DNA of 64,000 nt from Octopus vulgaris (lineage: Eukaryota), in NCBI GenBank assembly GCA_951406725.2, contig OX597821.1:40610001-40674000 (forward strand), given 5' to 3'. The notes under the pieces are model-generated. The model saw only the letters and a list, made by a program, of their open reading frames with translations. It was not told where the DNA came from and ran no database searches. The position numbers and the translations under genes are program-made. Positions within the stretch are counted from its first letter, which is position 1; each line of letters begins with the position of its first letter. Below, piece by piece: positions 20,961-45,243 of this stretch.

Positions 20961-22448
20961 AACAGTAACCCTTGAAGCAATATCGTCTCCGGCATCAGTG
21001 TGCTGCCACCTTTGAGTAATTATGCAATTGATATCATTTGATGTTTTCATTAGTTCTTCTTGAAAGGATTCCTTGACGAAAGCTATCTTGTTACAATGTT
21101 TTTGCATTAAAACCAAAACTACACAAATGAGCGCTGATCACTCTTTCGTCGTTTGTTACAGATGAAGTAATTAATATTTGTGTGAAAAGACAACAAATTA
21201 TAAAAATTAAATTACAAAAAAAACAACAAATATCTATAAAAAACAAACCAAACACACACATATTCTCTCCCCCTTTCTCTCTCTCTCTCTCCCTTTCTTC
21301 ATCTCTTTACCTCTTCAGCCCTTTATCCCTCTTCTCTCTGTCTATTTTTCTCTTACACACACACACACACACACACACCAACCCACACATACACACACTC
21401 TCATGGAGCTAAAATCTAAACTAAAGTCTCTGTTCCTCACCAAAGTTATTAATTTTCTGTTTACCTTTGTCTGGCATTCTTGAGATAAAATGGTAATAAA
21501 TGGTTCCATGTAATCTGGAGGATTAGGGGAAATTTTTACAAGATAAATCAGGAAATCCAATACAAAGTATAAAGGGCTCATATTAATTATTTCCACCCAA
21601 AAACAGTTTAATACATTAATCCCATAAAGCTCCCCTAAACAAATTCTACAACGATGCTTGGTATGTCAAAATATTTGGAAAATAATTCCATTCTTTTGTC
21701 TTTTACATATTTTTTTCATCTTTGACATCTTCAGCATCTTCAGCAAGTGTCTTTTACTGTAGCAAAGAGTTATCCAATATCTTGTGAATAACATTTGATA
21801 TTTGGCAGATAGGAACCACACAGATGTCTCCTGCTAAATATCTATTTCTTTACTACCCACAAGGGGCTACACACAGAGGGGACAAGCAAGGACAGACAAA
21901 CGGATTAAGTCGATTATACTGACCCCAGTGCGTAACTGGTACTTATTTAATCGACCCCGAAAGGATGAAAGGCAAAGTCGACCTCGGCGGAATTTGAACT
22001 CAAAACGTAAAGACAGACGAAATACTGCTAAGCATTTCGGCCGGCATGCTAACGTTTCTGCCAGCTCACCCATCATCATCATTTAACATCTGTTTTCCAT
22101 GTTAGCATGGGTTGGACAGTTTGATAGGAGCTGGCCAGCTGGAGAGCTGTCTGGGTCCTATTTGTCTGTTGTAGTATGGTTTCTATGGCTGGATGTCCTT
22201 CCTAACACCAATCACAGACCTGTACTAGGCACTTCTATATGGCACTGTCTTGGGTGCTTTTACATAACGCCAGCACTGGTTGTGGGAGTGAGAAACAGGA
22301 GAAGGAAGACATTGCTCTTATGGTTATTATTATTCTTTCTTATTATCACAGGTTTTGTTAGAACTCATGGAGTTTTGCATATGTAGTGGGCTTGCTACCT
22401 GCAGCCTATGATACCATGCTATTTGTGCTTTTCAACTATTTAATACTT

Positions 22449-22598
22449 ACATTATTTTCATTATTTACATTATTTACATTTGACTGATATTTGTCCTAAT
22501 CTTGTTTGTTGTTAACACAACGTTTCGGCTGATATACACTCCAGCCTTCATCAGGTGTCTTGGGAAATTTCGAACCCGGTTCCTAAGGTATTTTTCGA

Positions 22599-22669
<71 letters not shown>

Positions 22670-22742
22670 TCACTACCTGAAATCAAATTCGGAATCTTGG
22701 GGCTACTAACCCCAAGATTCCAAGTTCAATTCTAGGCAGTGA

Positions 22743-22805
<63 letters not shown>

Positions 22806-22983
22806 CAATAACAACAACAACATCGAAAAATACCTTAGGAATGAGAACCCAGGATTGAAAGAGGCTGGAGGGTATATCAGCCGAAACATTGTGTTAACAA
22901 CAAACAAGATGAGGACAAATATCCGTCAAATGTAAATAATGTAAGTAATGTCCATAATTCCTCATCTCTTAAATATAGAACTG
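22449..22983. mobile_element. Foldback tRNA-head/(TAA)n/hammerhead short retroelement (candidate Penelope-mobilised SINE), copy A
   Basis: The two arms are reverse complements pivoting on CTTGGGGCTACTAACCCCAAG (about 22697-22717). 12 bp TSD TATTTAATACTT at 22437-22448 and 22984-22995. Hammerhead core in the left arm. Confidence 0.85.
22514..22559 (-). ncRNA. Minimal type I hammerhead ribozyme
   Basis: Minus strand reads GACAC-CTGATGA-A-GGCTG(gagtgtatat)CAGCC-GAAAC-GTT-GTGTT. Conserved core CUGAUGA/GAAA, stem II GGCTG/CAGCC, palindromic minimal stem III (AACGTT) and stem I GACAC/GTGTT. Confidence 0.8.
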
Positions 22984-23316
22984 TATTTAATACTTTCCTG
23001 ATTAGTCTGGCCACACAGCTTCCAACGTAGCCCTTTTGCTATCTTATCATGTCACCACATCTTTTAGTGGATTTGGATATGTCTACATTCGTGATATGGG
23101 CAATTGTTTCATTCAAACTATTTCAGATGTGGCACAGTGGAGACACTTACTCATTCCTAAGGTTGACCATCCAATTCATGGCCAAAGCTTTGTCTTGCAC
23201 TACCAGTATGGTGCTCTCAGTTTCTTTTTTTAGAGTTTCTTTCATCAGCCAGTCCCACCTATATTTTCCAACAACTTATTATTATTATTAATATTATTAT
23301 TATTATTATTATTATT

Positions 23317-27820: not shown

Positions 27821-28030
27821 TAGAAAGAATGGTGCCAGAATGTGGGGCTGAACCCAAATCATGCAGTTGGGAAGCACATTTCTTACTCACACAGCCATGC
27901 TAACACCAAAATATAAAAATAAAGAAATTCCATGTCTTGAAGAATATATTATGTGGCTATAGTAAGTAGAGTGTTCATTATTTACATTATTTACATTTGA
28001 TGGATATTTGTCCTCATCTTGTATGTTATT

Positions 28031-28076
28031 AACACAACGTTTCGGTTGATACACCCTCCAGCCTTCATCAGGTGTC
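28031..28076 (-). ncRNA. Minimal type I hammerhead ribozyme (one stem II mismatch)
   Basis: GACAC-CTGATGA-A-GGCTG(gagggtgtat)CAACC-GAAAC-GTT-GTGTT on the minus strand. Confidence 0.7.
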
Positions 28077-28129
28077 TTGGGGAAATTTCAAACCTGGGTT
28101 CTCATTCCTAAGGTATTTTTCAATGTTAT

Positions 28130-28595
28130 TATCTCTTTTATCTCTTTTATCTCTTTTATCTCTTTTACTTGTTTCAGTCATTTGACTGCGGCCATGCTGG
28201 AGTATCGCCTTCAGTCGAGCAAATCGACACCGGGATCCACTCCTTGTAAGCCCAGTACTTATTCTATCGGTCTCTTTTGCCGAACTGCTAAGTGATGGGG
28301 ACGTAAACACACCAGCATCGGTTGTCAAGCAATGCTAGGGAGACAAACACAGACACACAAACACACACACACACATAAATATATATATATAGACGGAAAC
28401 TGAAAGAAGCCTGTCGTATATATATACATATATACGACAGGCTTCTTTCAGTTTCCGTCTACCAAATCCACTCACAAGGCATTGGTCGGCCCGGGGCTAT
28501 AGCAGAAGACACTTGCCCAAGATGCCACGCAGTGGGACTGAACCCGGAACCATGTGGTTGGTTAGCAAGCTACTTACCACACAGCCACTCCTGCA
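28130..28595 (-). mobile_element. tRNA-derived CORE-like SINE (family B; resembles octopus OR-type SINEs)
   Basis: Head GTGGCTGTGTGGTAAG..GGTTCCGGGTTCAGTCCC, CORE-like CTTGGGCAAGTGTCTT, internal (TA)/(TG) microsatellite and a (AAAAGAGAT)n tail. Other copies at about 3830-4205, 10770-11010, 33966-34330, 39597-39995, 48805-49150, 54205-54620, 60490-60690 and 62703-62870. Confidence 0.8.
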
Positions 28596-28642
28596 CCTAT
28601 TGTAACTATTATTATTATTACTATTATTCTTACTATTATTAC

Positions 28643-28719
<77 letters not shown>

Positions 28720-28740
28720 TTATCATTCAGGTCAGTGCCT

Positions 28741-28793
28741 GGAATCGAACGTGGAATCTTGGAGTTAGTAGCCCATGCTCTTAACCACTATGC
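28741..28793 (-). promoter_or_regulatory. tRNA-like internal Pol III promoter (A and B boxes) heading the hammerhead element
   Basis: Minus strand GCATAGTGGTTAAGAGC (A box) ... GGGCTACTAACTCC (anticodon-like hairpin) ... GTTCGATTCC (B box). Confidence 0.7.
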
Positions 28794-28861
28794 AGTGACC
28801 TGAATAATAATAATAATATTATTATCATTAATAATAAAAAAATGATAATAACAACAACAAC

Positions 28862-28919
<58 letters not shown>

Positions 28920-29869
28920 TTGAAAAATGCCTTAGGAATGAGAACCCAGGTTTGAAATTTCCCCAAGACACCTAATAAAGGCTGGAGGGTATATCAGCCA
29001 AAACATTGTGTTAACAACAAACAAGATGAGGACAAATATCCGTCAAATGTAAATAATGTAAATAATGTGCATAATTCCTCATCTCTTAAATATAGAACGT
29101 AGAGTGTTGTTGTCTAATAAACACATAAGAGACACGCACAAGGTCTTGGCTATATAGGTTTCAGTGAGAATCTACAGTGGCTTTACATTTTTGAAGATGC
29201 ATAATAAATCTCATTAAGCAATTACTGCCAGAAAGCTAAATAAAGGATCCTTATGTTGATATATTTTTCACATTTTTCTGGAAGCAAAAAGATGTTTGGT
29301 TTAAACAAATACACACTTTGCTAAATTTCATATTGTGTTAGTATGTTATTATCTTTGTAACTGAACTAGAATTAATTTCTATATGTTTATCAGGTTTTTT
29401 GGGTTTTTTTTTTTTTCTCAAAACTATTGCCAATCCAACACACTGTCTCATCGCAGCATATACTTACTACTCAAAAGTATTAACACTGCTTGTAAATTCA
29501 GTTGAACTTCATGCTGTCCCTTCCATTATTCTTAAAAGAACTACACCTGAGATCATACATCAAAGCCATCTTTTACATTGGTGTTTTGTGAATACAGACT
29601 CTTTTAGCAGCACAGAAGCATAGTTTTGGATTTCAACTTCTGAAATCAGAAACAAAAGCAACCCCTAACAGTTTCTGACGGTTCTTTCTGCTGATGCAGC
29701 ATAGATAACAAACCAAACACTGCATCCCAAAGATTAATCACTCTCCCAAGAACCAATCAAATTCTTCAGCTCAGAGGAACTACTGCCTCTCATCATCATG
29801 TTCGTCCACTATGGAGAACTGGATTACGTTTACTAGCCTCCTCACTTTAACAAAAAAAAAGAAATAAAA

Positions 29870-35219: not shown

Positions 35220-35837
35220 GTTCGGGCAGTACGTTGCATGTGGCCTTGATTCAAGATAGAGCAGGTGTTGCAAGATCGGGCTCATTATTGCAAGATTGTG
35301 GCCTTGATTCCAAGATCAGGCAGTACGTTGCATGTGGCCTTGATTCCAAGATAGAGCAGGACATTGCATGTGGCCTTGATTCCAAGATCGGGCAGTACAT
35401 TGCATGTGGCCTTGATTCCAAGATAGAGCAGTAAGTTGCATGTGGCCTTGATTTCAAGATAGAGCAGTAAGTTGCATGTGGCCTTGATTCCAAGATCGGG
35501 CAGTACATTGCATGTGGCCTTGATTCCAAGATAGAGCAGTAAGTTGCATGTGGCCTTGATTCCAAGATCGGGCAGTACATTGCATGTGGCCTTGATTCCA
35601 AGATAGAGCAGTAAGTTGCATGTGGCCTTGATTCCAACGTCGGACAGTACATTGCATGTGGCCTTGATTCCAACATCGGGCAGTACATTGCATGTGGCCT
35701 TGATCCCAAGATCGGGCAGTACATTGCATGTGGCCTTGATTCCAAGATCGGGCAGTACATTGCATGTGGCCTTGATTCCAAGATCGGGCAGTACATTGCA
35801 TGTGGCCTTGATCCCAAGATCGGGCAGTACATTGCAT
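35220..35837. repeat. 36 bp minisatellite, about 17 copies
   Basis: Unit TTGCATGTGGCCTTGATTCCAAGATCGGGCAGTACA, with variant ..ATAGAGCAGTAAG. No unique spacers. Confidence 0.95.
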
Positions 35838-39995: not shown

Positions 39996-40348
39996 AAAAA
40001 AAAATGAATGATAAGTCAGTAGTTACAATAACTAAATGTATTATTTGCGAATTTATACCACACCATGGATTCAGTTTCCTTCAGTTTGATACTTTCCTAT
40101 AAGGTCAATATTATAATTGGGAGAATTAACATTTAATAGAGCCACACTCTCATCCATGGAGAGATGTGTCTCACTTCTAAGTTATGCAACAATTCGTTGA
40201 ACTCTGTAGGTTTAAGAATTTGATTAACTAAATTCCTTTAAAGCTTATTTTAGATTGTATTGATCATGTTAATGAATATGTAACTAATTATTTGCATTAT
40301 TTACATTATTTGCCTTTGACGGATATTTGTCCTCATCTTGTTTGTTGT

Positions 40349-40395
40349 TAATACAACATTTCAGCTAATATACCCTCCAGCCTTCATCAGGTGTC
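40349..40395 (-). ncRNA. Degenerate hammerhead ribozyme motif
   Basis: GACAC-CTGATGA-A-GGCTG..TAGCT-GAAAT-GTT-GTATT. The core is retained but the stems carry substitutions. Confidence 0.45.
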
Positions 40396-40449
40396 TTGAG
40401 GAAATTTTGAACCTGGGTTCTCATTCCTAAGGTATTTTTCCATGTTATT

Positions 40450-40487
<38 letters not shown>

Positions 40488-40506
40488 TATTATTATTATT
40501 ATTATT

Positions 40507-41334
40507 CAGTAGTTTTATTTTTTATAGCGTGCTTTCACTTCACTACCAAGCGTAGCTCTGTGTGCCTTGGGTATGTGCTGTGATTTGTTGTGATGCTCTG
40601 ATGGTTATTGTATGGAAAGTGTTCTGCGTAGGATGTGTGCAGTGCCTAGTAGTGCAATTTTCTGTATGTTATATGTGTTTGTAAGTCCTGGTGTGGAGGC
40701 GCAATGGCCCAGTGGTTAGGGTAGCGGACTCGCGGTCGGATATCGTGGTTTCGATTCCCAGACCAGGCGTTGTGAGTGTTTATTGAGCGAAAACACCTAA
40801 AGCTCCACGAGGCTCCGGCAGGGATGTTGGTAATCCCTGCTGTATTATTTCACCACAACTTTCTCTCAATCTTACTTCCTGTTTCTGTTGTACCTGTATT
40901 TCAAAGGGCTGGCCTTGTCACTCTCTGTGTCACGCTGAATATCCCTGAGAACTACGTTAAGGTTACACGTGTCTGTGGAGTGCTCATCCACTTGCACTTT
41001 AATTTCACGAGCAGGCTGTTCCGTTGATCGGATCAACCGGAACCCTCGTAGTCGTAACCGACAGAGTGCTTCTAGAAAGTCCTAGTGATTTTGTTATGTA
41101 TTTGTCTGAATATTTTTTTATCATGCCTAATGCACCTACTATGATAGGAATTGTTTCTGATCTCTGACAACTATATCTGGTCTGTTGGCCTTAATTTCTC
41201 TATCTGTGTATCGGCATATCCCAAAGTATGGTTGCTTTCTCGTTTTCTGTGACCTTTTCTGGTGTGCGCCTATACCATCTTTTTTCTGTTGTTATTCCAT
41301 AATGTTGGCATAGCTTCCAGTGTATGTAGGTTCC
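40507..41334 (-). pseudogene. R4/Dong 3' fragment (copy 2, different subfamily), internally deleted and interrupted by a SINE
   Basis: Minus strand encodes GTYIHWKLCQHYG..ENEKATILWDMPI..RPDIVVRD / ETIPIIVGALGMIKK / TPGLTNTYNIQKIALLGTAHILRRTLSIQ* (stop at 40605-40607), then a ~100 bp 3' UTR and (TAA)n. It is flanked by TAA tracts on both sides. Confidence 0.88.
40694..41076 (+). mobile_element. tRNA-derived SINE (family C), young copy inserted in Dong copy 2
   Basis: A box TGGCCCAGTGG and B box GTTTCGATTCC. TSD AAGTCCT(G/A)GTG at 40683-40693 and 41077-41087. Related copies at about 5511-5830(+), 7262-7555(-), 13303-13440(+), 15628-15940(+), 19170-19455(+), 32040-32330(+), 45565-45938(-) and 49818-50092(+). 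Confidence 0.85.
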
Positions 41335-41364
41335 ATTATTATTATTATGATTATTATTATTATG

Positions 41365-41423
<59 letters not shown>

Positions 41424-41529
41424 CATCATTATTATTATTATTATCATCATTATTATTATTATTATTATTATCATTATTATTATTATTATTATTATTATCA
41501 TCATCATCATTATTATTATTATTATTATT

Positions 41530-44484
41530 CTATGTTTGACTTTTGCTTTATATTTGTACAAGTTGGCTCCAAGTCTCACCCAGAGACCTCAAGAGACAAC
41601 AGGGTTGGAAGTTCATGTTGTTGTTATGCCTAGTGTGCCATATATTTGGGGGGTGGGGTTGTTGTACTAATGAATGTCTAAAAAAAATTTTTTTTTTTTT
41701 TTTTTTTTTTAAACCGAAAATTATGTTTGTTTTAAACCTTGAGATTACATAGAAAGTATTTTGCGTAGGATATGAGCAGTTCCCATGAGCACTATCTTTT
41801 GAATTTCTGCCATTTTTGGGTTTCCTGGTATCTGAGTTAGGTAGCTATCTGCCCCTTTTGCTATCATTCCCAGGGCACCTATGACAACAGGTATTGTTTT
41901 AGTCTTCAGCTTCCACATTTTGCTGATTTCTATTTCAAGATCTTTATATTTGCTCAGTTTTTGGTAGGTCTTGACAGATACGTTTATATCGATTGGGACA
42001 GTCATATCAATGAGGAGGCATGTTCTTTGTTTGAAGTCTTTCAATATGATGTCTGGCCTATTTGCATCTATCTTTCTGTCAGTTTGAATGGCGAAGTTCC
42101 AGAGGAGTGAGATGTGGTCATTTTCAAGCACTGGGGGTGGTTTGTGTTCCCACCAGTTTTTTTCATGGGGCAAATCCAGGTTTTTACAGATTACCCAGTG
42201 AATATATTGTGCAGCTCTATCGTGTCTGTTGAGATATTCTGTAGGCGCTAGAATACTGCACTTGGAGACCACATGGTCAATGGTTTCATTTTGTTGCTTG
42301 CATACACGACACGTTGGACTGCTTCTGATCTTTAATATGTTGGCCTGGTAGTTTCTTGTTGGTAGGCATTGATCTTGAGCTGCTATGATAAACCCCTCTG
42401 TTTCAGATTTTAAGCCAGAGGCCATTAGCCATTGATGGGTCAGGGCTTTGTCAACATCTGCATTATTTGCTCTCTTTGGGTATTTGCCATAGAGAGGTTT
42501 TTCTTGCCATTTATCATTCAGAATATCTAAGGCCGCAGATTTAGCACGGGTTTTCATGCGCTTAGCTTTTTCTGTGCCTGTTTCTTGTATGTCTATCTCT
42601 AATTCCGAAATTTGTTGTATTTGGAATTCACTTAGATACTCCTTTGCCTGTTTTGTTACTGAGTATGATGCTTTCTTGTTTTCATGTTTTGAGACAAGTT
42701 TTAACATCCAGTCCTCAGAGTTTTTCAGGTAGGTGTCTAGGCCAATTGTAGCAATCTTCATTGTTATTGCCAGTTGTAAAAGTCCACGGCCTCCCTCTTT
42801 TCTTGGCAGATAAAGTCGTTCTGTATCTGCCTTAGGGTGGTGCATTCTATGCATTGTCAACAGCTTTCGTATTTTTCTGTCAAGATTACATATTTCAGTA
42901 ATTGACCAGTTAACGATACTGAAACTGTAAGTCACGACTGGTATGGCTAATGCATTGATCGCTTCGATCCTGTTTCTCGCATTCAGCTCTGTCTTGAGTA
43001 TTGCTCTTACTCTGCGGTAGCATTCTCTCCTGATCCTTTCCTTCATCTCTGAATGCCTTATTCCTTCTCCTTCAATTACCCCTAGATACTTGTAGTTCTC
43101 TGCTGGGTCTAATTCTTTTATGACATTCTGCTGGTCAAGGTTAACGTTAGATGTTTCTGTCATTTTTCCTTTGATAAAGGTAGCTTTTGCGCATTTATCG
43201 AGGCCAAATTGCATTCTGATGTCATCACTGAATTGTTTGACAATCGCTAGTAAGCCCTTGAGTTGTTGGTCATTTTTTGCAAAGAGCTTTAAATCATCCA
43301 TGTAAATGAGATGATTTATATTTTTATCAAACATTTTATATCCGTACTGCGCATCATTGAGCAGTTTTGAGAGAGGTATTAAGGCTAAACAGAAGAGGAG
43401 CGGTGATAGTGAGTCACCCTGGAAAATGCCACATGAAATTTTTACATCACCAGCATTTAGAGATTCATTGTCACTGTTCAAAGTTAGTGTGGTTCTCCAT
43501 GATCTCATACTTACAGACAAAAAGTTTCGCAGAGCAGGTGCTATCTTATACATTTCTAGGCATTTATTAATCCAGCTATGTGGTAGGCTATCAAAAGCCT
43601 TTTTATAGTCTATCCAGGCTATTGATAAGGTTTTATGTCGTTTGTGACAATCTTCTAAGATCATCTTATTGATGAGTAGTTGATCTTTACAACCGTAGGA
43701 TCCACGTTTACATCCTTTCTGTTCATTAGGGAATATGCTGCTGTCTGTCAAAAAACTATAGGTATATTCCGTCAGGACAGATGTTAGTGTTTTATACATA
43801 GTTGTTAGGCAGGTTATGGGTCTATAGTTTTTGGGTTCATTTGTTTCTTCACTTTTTGGAAGCAGGAATGTTAACCCATTAACTAGCCAAGGAGGCATCC
43901 TACTAGGGTGTTGCAAAACATCATTGTAAAGTTCTGCTAGCAGTTCATGGCTCTCTGGGAAGGCATTCAACCAAAAGTTAGGGATTTTATCCTTTCCTGG
44001 AGACTTCCATTTGCTTGACCTCCTGAGAGCAGATCTTATATCTTCTACCTTGACACCCTCCCACTTTTGCTCTTCTAAGGAGTCCAGTTCTTTAGATATT
44101 CTATCAATCCAGGGGGCCTTTTCGCTGTGTGTTTTTTCTTCTGCCCAAATTTTATTCCAAAATCCCTGCACTTCTTCTTTTGATGGTACAGACTTTACAG
44201 TAACTGTTGTTTTTCCTATCTTCCTGTAAAAATGTTTGGGGTTACTTTTGAACATGTTGTTGTCCCTGTAGAATCTAATACGCTTTTCATATCTCGCTAT
44301 GCGGGCAGCTTTAGCAGATACCTTTTGCTTGATGGTTTCTATGGTGGCATCAATATCAAGTATAGTTTTCATATTATATTTTTTCATTAGTTTTTGGGTT
44401 TTTGCAGGTTTGGTAGTCTTATGAACCTTAAGGTTTTTCAAATATTCAATGTCAGATCTAAATAGTTTAATTTGTTGTTGCAAA
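41530..44484 (-). mobile_element. R4/Dong non-LTR retrotransposon (copy 1, young), inserted in a (TAA)n microsatellite
   Basis: The ORF above plus a ~215 bp 3' UTR. (TAA)n tracts abut both ends (41335-41529 and 44485-44567), matching the known TAA-repeat specificity of Dong elements. Confidence 0.93.
41745..44483 (-). CDS. R4/Dong-clade non-LTR retrotransposon ORF (reverse transcriptase + CCHC zinc knuckle + restriction-like endonuclease), 5'-truncated but uninterrupted
   Basis: RT motifs NYRPITCL, IDYKKAFDS, GIFQGDSLSPLLF, YMDD and YKYLG. CCHC knuckle CRVC...HVVSKC, then RHD and RPDII..LIDMTVP..KLSKY (PD-D..K REL endonuclease). The ORF-track extension to 44627 (TTG start, poly-Asn) is read-through of the (AAT)n target and flanking element, not element sequence. 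Confidence 0.95.
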   Translation of the reverse strand: MQQQIKLFRSDIEYLKNLKVHKTTKPAKTQKLMKKYNMKTILDIDATIETIKQKVSAKAARIARYEKRIRFYRDNNMFKSNPKHFYRKIGKTTVTVKSVPSKEEVQGFWNKIWAEEKTHSEKAPWIDRISKELDSLEEQKWEGVKVEDIRSALRRSSKWKSPGKDKIPNFWLNAFPESHELLAELYNDVLQHPSRMPPWLVNGLTFLLPKSEETNEPKNYRPITCLTTMYKTLTSVLTEYTYSFLTDSSIFPNEQKGCKRGSYGCKDQLLINKMILEDCHKRHKTLSIAWIDYKKAFDSLPHSWINKCLEMYKIAPALRNFLSVSMRSWRTTLTLNSDNESLNAGDVKISCGIFQGDSLSPLLFCLALIPLSKLLNDAQYGYKMFDKNINHLIYMDDLKLFAKNDQQLKGLLAIVKQFSDDIRMQFGLDKCAKATFIKGKMTETSNVNLDQQNVIKELDPAENYKYLGVIEGEGIRHSEMKERIRRECYRRVRAILKTELNARNRIEAINALAIPVVTYSFSIVNWSITEICNLDRKIRKLLTMHRMHHPKADTERLYLPRKEGGRGLLQLAITMKIATIGLDTYLKNSEDWMLKLVSKHENKKASYSVTKQAKEYLSEFQIQQISELEIDIQETGTEKAKRMKTRAKSAALDILNDKWQEKPLYGKYPKRANNADVDKALTHQWLMASGLKSETEGFIIAAQDQCLPTRNYQANILKIRSSPTCRVCKQQNETIDHVVSKCSILAPTEYLNRHDRAAQYIHWVICKNLDLPHEKNWWEHKPPPVLENDHISLLWNFAIQTDRKIDANRPDIILKDFKQRTCLLIDMTVPIDINVSVKTYQKLSKYKDLEIEISKMWKLKTKTIPVVIGALGMIAKGADSYLTQIPGNPKMAEIQKIVLMGTAHILRKILSM

Positions 44485-44490
44485 TTATTA

Positions 44491-44571
<81 letters not shown>

Positions 44572-45243
44572 TCACTGCCTGGAATCAAACTCAGAATCTT
44601 GGACAAATATCCATCAAATGTAAACAATGTACATAATTCCTCATCTCTTAAATATAGAATTGTATGTAACTAATTGTTTTCACAAATATAAAATATATCT
44701 ATGAATGAAGCATAGTTAAAACTGGATGTTCCCAGGCAAGTCAACCATTCATTTCCAACAAGATAAGCACCAGCAGATGGAATGATGAAGGGATTCAATT
44801 TCTGCTCTTACTTTTGTGAACTAAAGAATAAGAATTCACAGAATATTTATACCAAGTCCACCAATCTCAACTACTAATGCCTGCAGTAACATGCATTTAC
44901 ACTAATATTCTGGTGCTGGTACCACCCAGTACACATTATAAAGTGGTTGGCATTAGGAAGGGAATCCAGCCATAGAAACTTTGCCAGAACAGTCAATGGA
45001 ACCTGGTGTGGAACCTGGTGTGGAACCCGGCCTTACCAGCTCCTGTCAAATCATCCAACCCATGCCAGTATGGAAAACGGATGTTAAATGATGATGATGA
45101 TGACATCAGCGATGAGAACAACGATGATTATGATGATGACAACGACAAGGATTCATTCACACACACACACACATACACACACTCACACACACACATGCAT
45201 ACACATGCACAAAGTATTACACTGTATCTACCCTACTAAATGC

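What the first reader, a model, noticed from the sequence alone, without database searches (positions are those of the whole stretch)
40277..44675. Four-element nest: hammerhead SINE > two Dong retrotransposons > tRNA SINE
A 13 bp TSD (TATGTAACTAATT) brackets 4.4 kb. The internal (TAA)n of the hammerhead element holds two different co-oriented Dong families in tandem (40507-41334 and 41530-44484). The older one is interrupted by a SINE with its own 11 bp TSD. Inference: the SINE spreads TAA target sites that TAA-specific Dong elements then colonise. Copy B likewise has a SINE in its TAA tract.
Basis: partly seen in the sequence, partly recalled or inferred. Interest (0 to 1): 0.7.

Follow-up and report, generated by a model that had tools for sequence, protein, structure and literature searches.

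The report
Dong retrotransposons stacked in Penelope end
Two TAA-targeting Dong retrotransposons and a SINE really are stacked inside an older insertion, but that insertion is the tRNA-headed end repeat of a Penelope-like retrotransposon rather than a plain SINE, and Dong lands in such repeats about as often as their share of TAA tracts predicts, so the nest is likely an ordinary pile-up.

Summary
The four-layer nest is real: unique 13-bp TSD, two Dong-type families (44-60% protein identity), and an inner tRNA SINE with a 10-11 bp TSD (one mismatch). Two parts of the interpretation fail. (1) The outer 'hammerhead SINE' is the terminal repeat (pLTR) of a Penelope-like element: its tRNA-like head lies 23 nt after the stop codon of an RT/GIY-YIG-type ORF, its 3' end runs into that ORF's first codons, and here it inserted as a long inverted, tail-less arm plus a short tailed arm, the known Penelope anatomy. 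(2) Dong is not detectably enriched in these tracts: 10 of 146 Dong 3' ends (6.8%) against 6 of 137 background TAA tracts (4.4%), odds ratio 1.6 (0.6-4.3), p=0.45. The commonest known neighbour is another Dong (24%). Co-orientation follows from the strand-specific TAA target. A second pLTR>DongA+DongB nest turned up by chance (L026). The tRNA-headed Penelope repeat is the interesting part; my paper searches did not find it described, but this scan already noted it at four other places in the same genome (unreviewed). Pol III transcription and ribozyme activity are untested.

The parts
40277..40289 (.). Left copy of the 13-bp target-site duplication of the outer insertion
   Evidence: exact match to 44663-44675, only two occurrences in the window
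40290..40449 (-). Body of the long (inverted, tail-less) arm of the Penelope-like pLTR; its 3' part is the start of the Penelope ORF
   Evidence: 3.1% non-CpG and 7/16 CpG sites changed over the outer element
40350..40395 (-). Minimal type-I hammerhead motif (helix I, CUGAUGA, helix II, GAAA, 2-nt loop III, UU); core intact, helix I has one mismatch, loop-III palindrome decayed; activity untested
   Evidence: pattern match in this copy and in 63 of 110 copies spanning it; no Rfam hit
40450..40506 (.). 3' remainder of the pLTR's internal (TAA)n, partly converted to (TGA)n; Dong A target/tail
40507..41334 (-). Dong family A, 5'-truncated 3' end with an internal deletion, split by the inner SINE
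40683..40692 (.). Left TSD of the inner SINE (10-11 bp; right copy 41077-41086 has one mismatch)
40693..41076 (+). tRNA-headed SINE (anticodon-like TCG, read by eye), abundant family, antisense to Dong A
   Evidence: 7,290 first-look candidates, best other copies 95%; TSDs of other copies
41335..41529 (.). (TAA)65 between the two Dong elements
41530..44483 (-). Dong family B, young, 5'-truncated; ORF (stop at 41745-41747) with RT, CCHC finger and restriction-like endonuclease motifs; 215-bp 3' UTR
44484..44567 (.). 5' remainder of the pLTR's internal (TAA)n
44568..44600 (-). 3' half of the tRNA-like head (B-box-like part) of the long arm, truncated at the inversion point (2-nt microhomology GG)
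   Evidence: loose ends at 44601/44602
44601..44662 (+). Short second arm: pLTR 3' end with the ~30-nt 'tail'
44663..44675 (.). Right copy of the 13-bp TSD
27966..29108 (.). Copy B: inverted pLTR pair with 10-bp TSD, tail on the right arm only, another SINE at 28129-28599 in the left TAA tract
   Evidence: (L121)
22441..22997 (.). Third pLTR unit in the window: inverted pair with a 12-bp TSD and no insertion in either TAA tract

Best explanation
A Penelope-like retrotransposon's tRNA-headed end repeat sits here as an inverted pair inside a 13-bp duplication, and its internal TAA tract was likely hit later, independently, by two TAA-specific Dong families and then a SINE, at roughly the rate expected for any TAA tract. 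Steps: (1, shown) the repeat is the pLTR of an RT + GIY-YIG-type element: ORF stop, 23 nt, tRNA-like head, (TAA)n, hammerhead motif, first ORF codons. (2, inferred) its short RNA likely starts at the tRNA head from a Pol III internal promoter and is copied by the Penelope enzyme from two start points about 30 nt apart, giving one tailed and one tail-less arm in inverted orientation. (3, shown) Dong A and B 3' ends always abut (TAA)n on one strand, so co-orientation is forced. (4, inferred) Dong A inserted first, the SINE entered A, and Dong B entered the TAA left on A's 5' side; each Dong insertion leaves longer TAA on both sides, which likely favours Dong-on-Dong stacking more than the pLTR does.
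For: pLTR identity: 21 of 25 loci picked by the ORF start alone have the element's 3' end directly upstream; 28 of 30 loci picked by the spacer-head junction have the ORF C-terminus upstream, 8 also the RT; RT Pfam E=2.4e-10; C-terminus falls with GIY-YIG/HTH_animal clusters at 0.97 (families on 12-21% of members) and aligns weakly to a Pfam-positive GIY-YIG (E=1e-4). Anatomy: 11 of 11 units with a TSD of 10 bp or more among 30 loci have an inverted, tail-less left arm; arm ends are bimodal, 34 at -22..-46 and 45 at -1..+8 of 83 (12 and 14 of 29 in loci not picked for the tail), as described for PLEs (PMC8557442, PMC11167929). 34 of 56 head-containing arms start within -8..+10 of the head start. 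TAA targeting: 80 of 80 Dong ends found with TAA-free queries abut a tract of 18 nt or more. No enrichment: 10/146 vs 6/137, OR 1.56 (0.57-4.26), p=0.45; Dong-next-to-Dong 35/146 vs 17/137, OR 2.2, p=0.014 uncorrected. CpG decay orders the layers: outer 7/16, SINE 7/56, A 1/12, B 1/46. Second pLTR>A+B nest at L026.
Against: Family B alone gives 9/100 vs 6/137 (OR 2.2, p=0.18), so a mild preference is possible; 45-60% of neighbours are unclassified and background includes short impure tracts; some loci are clustered and not independent; the Dong-on-Dong p-value is about 0.07 after five comparisons. A-before-B is not significant by divergence (p=0.26) and both A-B orders occur elsewhere. The inner SINE has more non-CpG changes than its Dong A host (12/322 vs 5/423, p=0.026), which needs a diverged source copy to fit the order. 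Pfam does not call GIY-YIG on this family's decayed copies. Free folding does not give the hammerhead shape for this copy. No intact copy of this Penelope family was recovered.
Confidence: 0.8

Rival explanations
1. One reading: the hammerhead element is a preferred landing pad that spreads TAA targets which Dong then colonises selectively (facilitation).
For: About 7% of Dong ends (10/146) and 9% of B ends (9/100) lie in these tracts, roughly 440 exact-match B ends genome-wide by extrapolation from 4,861; 5 of 29 pLTR units carry Dong; unclassified tracts are under-used (OR 0.54, p=0.012).
Against: Share of insertions is not significantly above share of tracts (p=0.45; with head-or-body background 8/137, p=0.81); family A 1/46; larger suppliers are Dong itself (24%), another TAA-flanked repeat (14%) and an ATT-tailed SINE (10%).
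Confidence: 0.15
2. The outer element is a true SINE (tRNA head plus TAA tail) that captured a Penelope 3' end and is an independent non-autonomous family mobilised in trans.
For: Most copies begin at the tRNA head and carry no ORF beyond about 30 codons; about 14 arms per Mb. Functionally it behaves like a SINE.
Against: The same head, spacer and TAA tract are fixed between the ORF stop and ORF start of the protein-coding element, so the short copies are its truncated pLTR, not a separate family; origin of the head by an ancient SINE insertion into the pLTR remains possible.
Confidence: 0.1
3. The Dong A + SINE block was copied in as a ready-made unit (or Dong A was gene-converted by younger copies), so the layers did not arrive one by one.
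For: SINE more diverged than its host at non-CpG sites (p=0.026); a second Dong A with the same SINE family at nearly the same site exists (L317).
Against: L317 is only 88-89% identical, has a shifted 5' junction, lacks the focal deletion and has an intact SINE tail; no other composite among the 40 best hits; CpG decay of SINE (7/56) and A (1/12) is similar.
Confidence: 0.08
4. Local misassembly joined unrelated repeats through TAA tracts.
For: Three long TAA tracts; inner junctions not checked with reads.
Against: A unique 13-bp TSD brackets the unit and the two pLTR halves are complementary parts of one element; outer left junction bridged in 3 of 3 contig sets, right flank plus 24-25 nt of tail in 4 of 4.
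Confidence: 0.03

Closest known systems
R4/Dong clade non-LTR retrotransposons (Dong of Bombyx mori; Dong-R4 families reported as recently active in Octopus vulgaris, PMC13282606 parts 1-2 of 3 read; target statement in PMC7998251, passages read)
   Same: Single ORF with RT and C-terminal CCHC + restriction-like endonuclease, 5' truncation, strict (TAA)n target, which PMC7998251 gives as the Dong target in most insects, molluscs and cnidarians.
   Different: Nothing essential; no named Dong/R4 reference was available for a tree, and the N-terminal Myb-like domain is lost by truncation here.
Penelope/Poseidon-clade PLEs, e.g. PAc of Anolis carolinensis (PMC11167929, passages) and PLE insertion anatomy (PMC8557442, passages; PMC4209133, passages and section 5)
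   Same: Hammerhead in the pLTR at the ORF start, 30-40 nt tail on one end only, inverted 5'-truncated copy, minimal hammerheads scattered as single or opposite-strand pairs, no CxxC linker between RT and endonuclease.
   Different: The pLTR here contains a tRNA-like head and a (TAA)n tract ahead of the hammerhead, and most copies start at the head.
TRIMp3 elements Cassandra, Helenus, Ajax (PMC10886601, passages)
   Same: Small-RNA-derived, Pol III-type promoter inside a terminal repeat.
   Different: Those are non-autonomous LTR elements; here the host is a protein-coding Penelope-like element.
Octopus tRNA-derived SINEs of Ohshima and Okada 1994 (title seen in a reference list only; family names OK/OR1/OR2 recalled, paper not held) and Schistosoma Sm-alpha hammerhead SINE (recalled)
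   Same: Inner SINE has a tRNA-Arg-like head; outer short copies resemble a tRNA-headed hammerhead SINE.
   Different: Could not compare sequences; outer element is shown here to be a PLE terminal repeat.

Membership tests
R4/Dong non-LTR retrotransposon (A and B) | RT of R2/R4-like type in a single ORF | tested here: met
   Pfam RVT_1 E=2.6e-27; closest solved structures are R2 proteins, E 2e-29; full-length homologues about 1,200 aa
R4/Dong non-LTR retrotransposon (A and B) | C-terminal CCHC finger and restriction-like endonuclease (RHD, PD, K-x-x-KY motifs; motifs recalled) | tested here: met
   motifs found in B; zf-RVT E=6e-5, below cut-off; A aligns to the same C-terminus at 44-60%
R4/Dong non-LTR retrotransposon (A and B) | (TAA)n target specificity | tested here: met
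   80 of 80 3' ends abut TAA; 4,861 exact B-end + TAA matches, 0 for the reversed control
R4/Dong non-LTR retrotransposon (A and B) | Phylogenetic placement in the R4 clade with named references | not tested
   homologues returned carry no clade names; no tree built
R4/Dong non-LTR retrotransposon (A and B) | N-terminal SANT/Myb-like domain | not tested
   focal copies are 5'-truncated
Penelope-like element (outer element) | Linked PLE-type RT | tested here: met
   (25-36% to a GIY-YIG-bearing 781-aa PLE over N-terminus, RT and thumb)
Penelope-like element (outer element) | C-terminal GIY-YIG endonuclease | tested here: inconclusive
   Atlas clusters with GIY-YIG on 12-21% of members at 0.96-0.97, BLASTP E=1e-4 to a Pfam-positive GIY-YIG, but no Pfam hit on 4 decayed copies
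Penelope-like element (outer element) | pLTR: same sequence after the ORF stop and before/at the ORF start | tested here: met
Penelope-like element (outer element) | Inverted 5'-truncated copy and 30-40 nt tail on one end | tested here: met
   focal unit, both other window units, 11 of 11 TSD-bracketed units
Penelope-like element (outer element) | Minimal hammerhead motif in the pLTR | tested here: met
   63 of 110 copies with intact core pattern; not an Rfam hit
Penelope/Poseidon clade | No Zn-finger-like linker between RT and EN (PMC8557442) | tested here: met
   read from L311/L293 translations; the 781-aa family does have such a linker
Penelope/Poseidon clade | RT phylogeny | not tested
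   no named references
Hammerhead ribozyme | Self-cleavage (likely as dimer) | not testable with these tools
   free folding does not give the active fold for the focal copy
SINE (outer element) | Small-RNA-derived head at the 5' end of copies | tested here: met
   34 of 56 starts within -8..+10 of the head; A/B boxes judged by eye from recalled consensus; ARAGORN finds no tRNA
SINE (outer element) | 3' end shared with a LINE, LINE-type insertion, independent of an autonomous element's own sequence | tested here: not met
   3' end is a PLE ORF start with tail and inversion
SINE (outer element) | Pol III transcription | not tested
   no RNA run was laid
tRNA SINE (inner element) | tRNA-like head, short tandem tail, 10-14 bp TSD, high copy number | tested here: met

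The most novel reading that the evidence does not exclude
A protein-coding Penelope element that captured a tRNA-derived Pol III promoter mass-produces SINE-like copies of its own end repeat (tens of thousands), and the TAA spacer in these copies is a preferred (about two-fold) landing pad for the young Dong B family: one retroelement class building the niche of another. The first half alone (Pol III-driven Penelope repeat) I put at about 0.6.
Probability: 0.15. Interest if true: 0.6.

Novelty: new variant of a known kind. Interest (0 to 1): 0.33.

Why it matters
The nest itself is what a repeat-rich genome with TAA-specific retrotransposons produces hundreds of times; it matters mainly as a caution that such stacks do not show facilitation without a background count. 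The reusable result is annotation and mechanism: a very common octopus-type 'SINE' is the truncated terminal repeat of a Penelope-like element with a tRNA-like head, a Penelope counterpart of the Pol III-promoter TRIMs, and its two end classes match the two reverse-transcription start sites measured for PAc. The counts also point to Dong-on-Dong stacking as the stronger feedback.

Tried and rejected
Rfam scan: 0 hits. ARAGORN: 0 tRNAs. Looked for the partner PLE through GIY-YIG Pfam hits: the active 781-aa and 574-aa families found target (TA)n and share no sequence with the element; an isolated 29-nt tail match in L241 lies 1.8 kb beyond that PLE and was rejected as a link. An early class 'Dong5' was contaminated by another repeat in one reference and was redone. 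L132, first read as a Dong insertion, is the PLE C-terminus. First enrichment count (4/87 vs 6/137) was enlarged by 60 more B ends (6/59), which raised the estimate; both are reported. Empty or intermediate alleles: none seen among the listed pieces for X2, X4, X7, X8, but lists are cut, contigs stop at repeats, raw-read run X12 gave 0 reads (no test), and the right junction is covered by only 24-25 nt inside the element, below the tool's 31-nt bridging rule. A genome-wide two-motif count was not obtained. Paper searches without a description of a tRNA-headed PLE or of Dong colonising such repeats; Repbase, the repeat library of PMC13282606 and subscription papers (Ohshima and Okada 1994; Kojima and Fujiwara 2004, recalled) were not seen and may already hold these families.
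Full report
Setting. The window lies in a 2.8-Gb animal genome; its repeats suggest an octopus (inference; Dong-R4, SINEs and Penelope elements are the reported recently active classes in Octopus vulgaris, PMC13282606, parts 1-2 of 3 read).

Observation. The 13-mer occurs exactly twice in the window, at the stated places. Between them lie, on the + strand: 160 bp of the outer element, a TAA/ATC tract, Dong A (40507-41334) split by a SINE (40693-41076), (TAA)65, Dong B (41530-44483), (TAA)28, 33 bp of a tRNA-like head, and 62 bp that are an inverted copy of the element's 3' end. Dong B is open over its whole length, with RT (E=2.6e-27), a CCHC finger and endonuclease motifs; nearest solved structures are R2 proteins. 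A and B are different families, 44-60% identical in protein. The inner SINE's duplication is 10-11 bp with one mismatch. Copy B and its SINE are as described. Contigs of three other runs bridge the left outer junction, one of them differing from the window at 6 of 313 bases; four carry the right flank with 24-25 nt of the tail. The outer insertion is therefore shared and old; no empty allele was seen.

What the outer element is. Among 30 loci found with its 3' half, all 11 that have a duplication of 10 bp or more consist of an inverted left arm lacking the last ~30 nt and a right arm that has them. Arm ends fall in two groups about 30-35 nt apart (34 and 45 of 83; 12 and 14 of 29 in loci not chosen for the tail). 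This is the Penelope-like (PLE) anatomy: inverted truncated copy and a 30-40 nt tail at one end (PMC8557442, passages), the tail being the stretch between two RT start sites early in the ORF (PMC11167929, passages). A decayed PLE in a systematically sampled stretch (L089) showed the element's 3' end in frame with a PLE ORF. Searching with the ORF start alone, 21 of 25 loci had the element's 3' end directly upstream. Searching with the spacer-head junction, 28 of 30 had the ORF C-terminus upstream, 8 also the RT; the head begins 23 nt after the stop codon. The RT is a Pfam hit; the C-terminus groups with GIY-YIG clusters in the Atlas and aligns weakly to a Pfam-positive GIY-YIG, but is not itself a Pfam hit. 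So head, TAA tract and hammerhead motif are the pLTR. 34 of 56 head-containing arms start within -8..+10 of the head, 7 extend upstream into the ORF and 15 are shorter, which suggests, but does not show, a Pol III start. The hammerhead is the minimal, probably dimer-acting type described for PLEs (PMC4209133, passages and section 5): intact core pattern in 63 of 110 copies, loop III CG or its CpG-decay products in 57 of 63; Rfam does not detect it and the focal copy does not fold into it freely. In the focal unit the tailed arm is the short one on the right and all later insertions sit in the long inverted arm.

Testing the colonisation claim. All 80 Dong ends found with TAA-free queries abut a TAA tract on the same strand, the known Dong target (PMC7998251, passages); co-orientation is therefore forced. 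I classified what lies beyond the tract for 149 non-focal Dong 3' ends (39 B and 39 A from similarity searches, 60 B from an exact-pattern list, 11 from the systematic sample; 3 ran off the fetched DNA and were dropped) and for 140 other tracts of four or more AAT in 1 Mb of systematically spaced stretches (3 dropped at edges). pLTR body: 10/146 vs 6/137, OR 1.56 (0.57-4.26), p=0.45; another Dong: 35 vs 17, OR 2.19, p=0.014 uncorrected; a TAA-flanked repeat I call Y: 21 vs 15; an ATT-tailed SINE: 14 vs 16; unclassified: 66 vs 83, p=0.012. Adding 10 tracts from 180 kb around unrelated PLEs changes little. Family B alone: 9/100, p=0.18; A alone: 1/46. Conversely 5 of 29 other pLTR units (one or two tracts each) carry a Dong piece. 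So these tracts are used, at about their share; a mild preference of B is not excluded. With 4,861 exact B ends, about 440 B-in-pLTR nests are expected, and a second pLTR>A+B stack appeared among the first 39 B loci (L026). The focal locus adds only a SINE in A.

Order. CpG decay: outer 7/16, SINE 7/56, A 1/12, B 1/46; non-CpG 3.1, 3.7, 1.2 and 0.8%. Outer first and B last fit; A versus B is not significant (p=0.26) and the majority bases for A and B come from copies chosen for likeness, which lowers their distances. The SINE's non-CpG excess over its host (p=0.026) is unexplained; a diverged source copy is the simplest account.

Comparison and novelty. Dong in TAA, nested retroelements and PLE inversions with tails are known. 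A tRNA-like head inside a PLE terminal repeat was not found in nine paper searches; the closest published parallel is the Pol III-promoter TRIMs (PMC10886601, passages). Repbase and the published octopus library were not seen. I reached the PLE reading before consulting earlier notes; the scan had noted the same element at four other places in this genome (unreviewed, not independent support). Verdict: real but ordinary nest; host misnamed; facilitation unsupported; interest 0.33.

Noticed in passing
L056:1191-1749 and many loci (e.g. L006-L009, L352-L355): A ~560-bp non-coding repeat ('Y') flanked by (TAA)n on both sides in the Dong orientation, about 1% of the sampled 1 Mb; candidate Dong-dependent non-autonomous element and a larger TAA supplier than the pLTR.
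   Followed up: partly
L317 (G000:C27:13476777-13477324): A second, more diverged Dong A with the same SINE family inserted within 2-3 nt of the same site: possible insertion hot spot in the Dong A 3' region.
   Followed up: partly
window 40693-41076: Seven of 19 differences of the inner SINE from its family majority are G>T or C>A transversions.
   Followed up: no
L241-L247, L253, L254: A very young PLE family (781-aa frame, copies 97-99% identical, CxxC linker, intron-like GT after the promoter region, (TA)n target, no canonical hammerhead found by my pattern).
   Followed up: partly
L241:7626-7654: An isolated 29-nt pLTR tail with no adjoining element sequence.
   Followed up: no
L283 + L293 (G000:C7:108773240-108778642): A near full-length, decayed copy of the tRNA-headed PLE with both ends.
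   Followed up: partly
L128: Head-to-tail tandem of short head-TAA-body units of the pLTR.
   Followed up: no
L152, L153: Two Dong B ends 5.7 kb apart, each followed by at least 1.5 kb of triplet repeat.
   Followed up: no
window 35297-35837: 36-bp tandem repeat, 15 copies, 91% matches, inside open frames.
   Followed up: no
L068:3760-6650: A third, GC-rich PLE family with a long RT/GIY-YIG-type frame.
   Followed up: no
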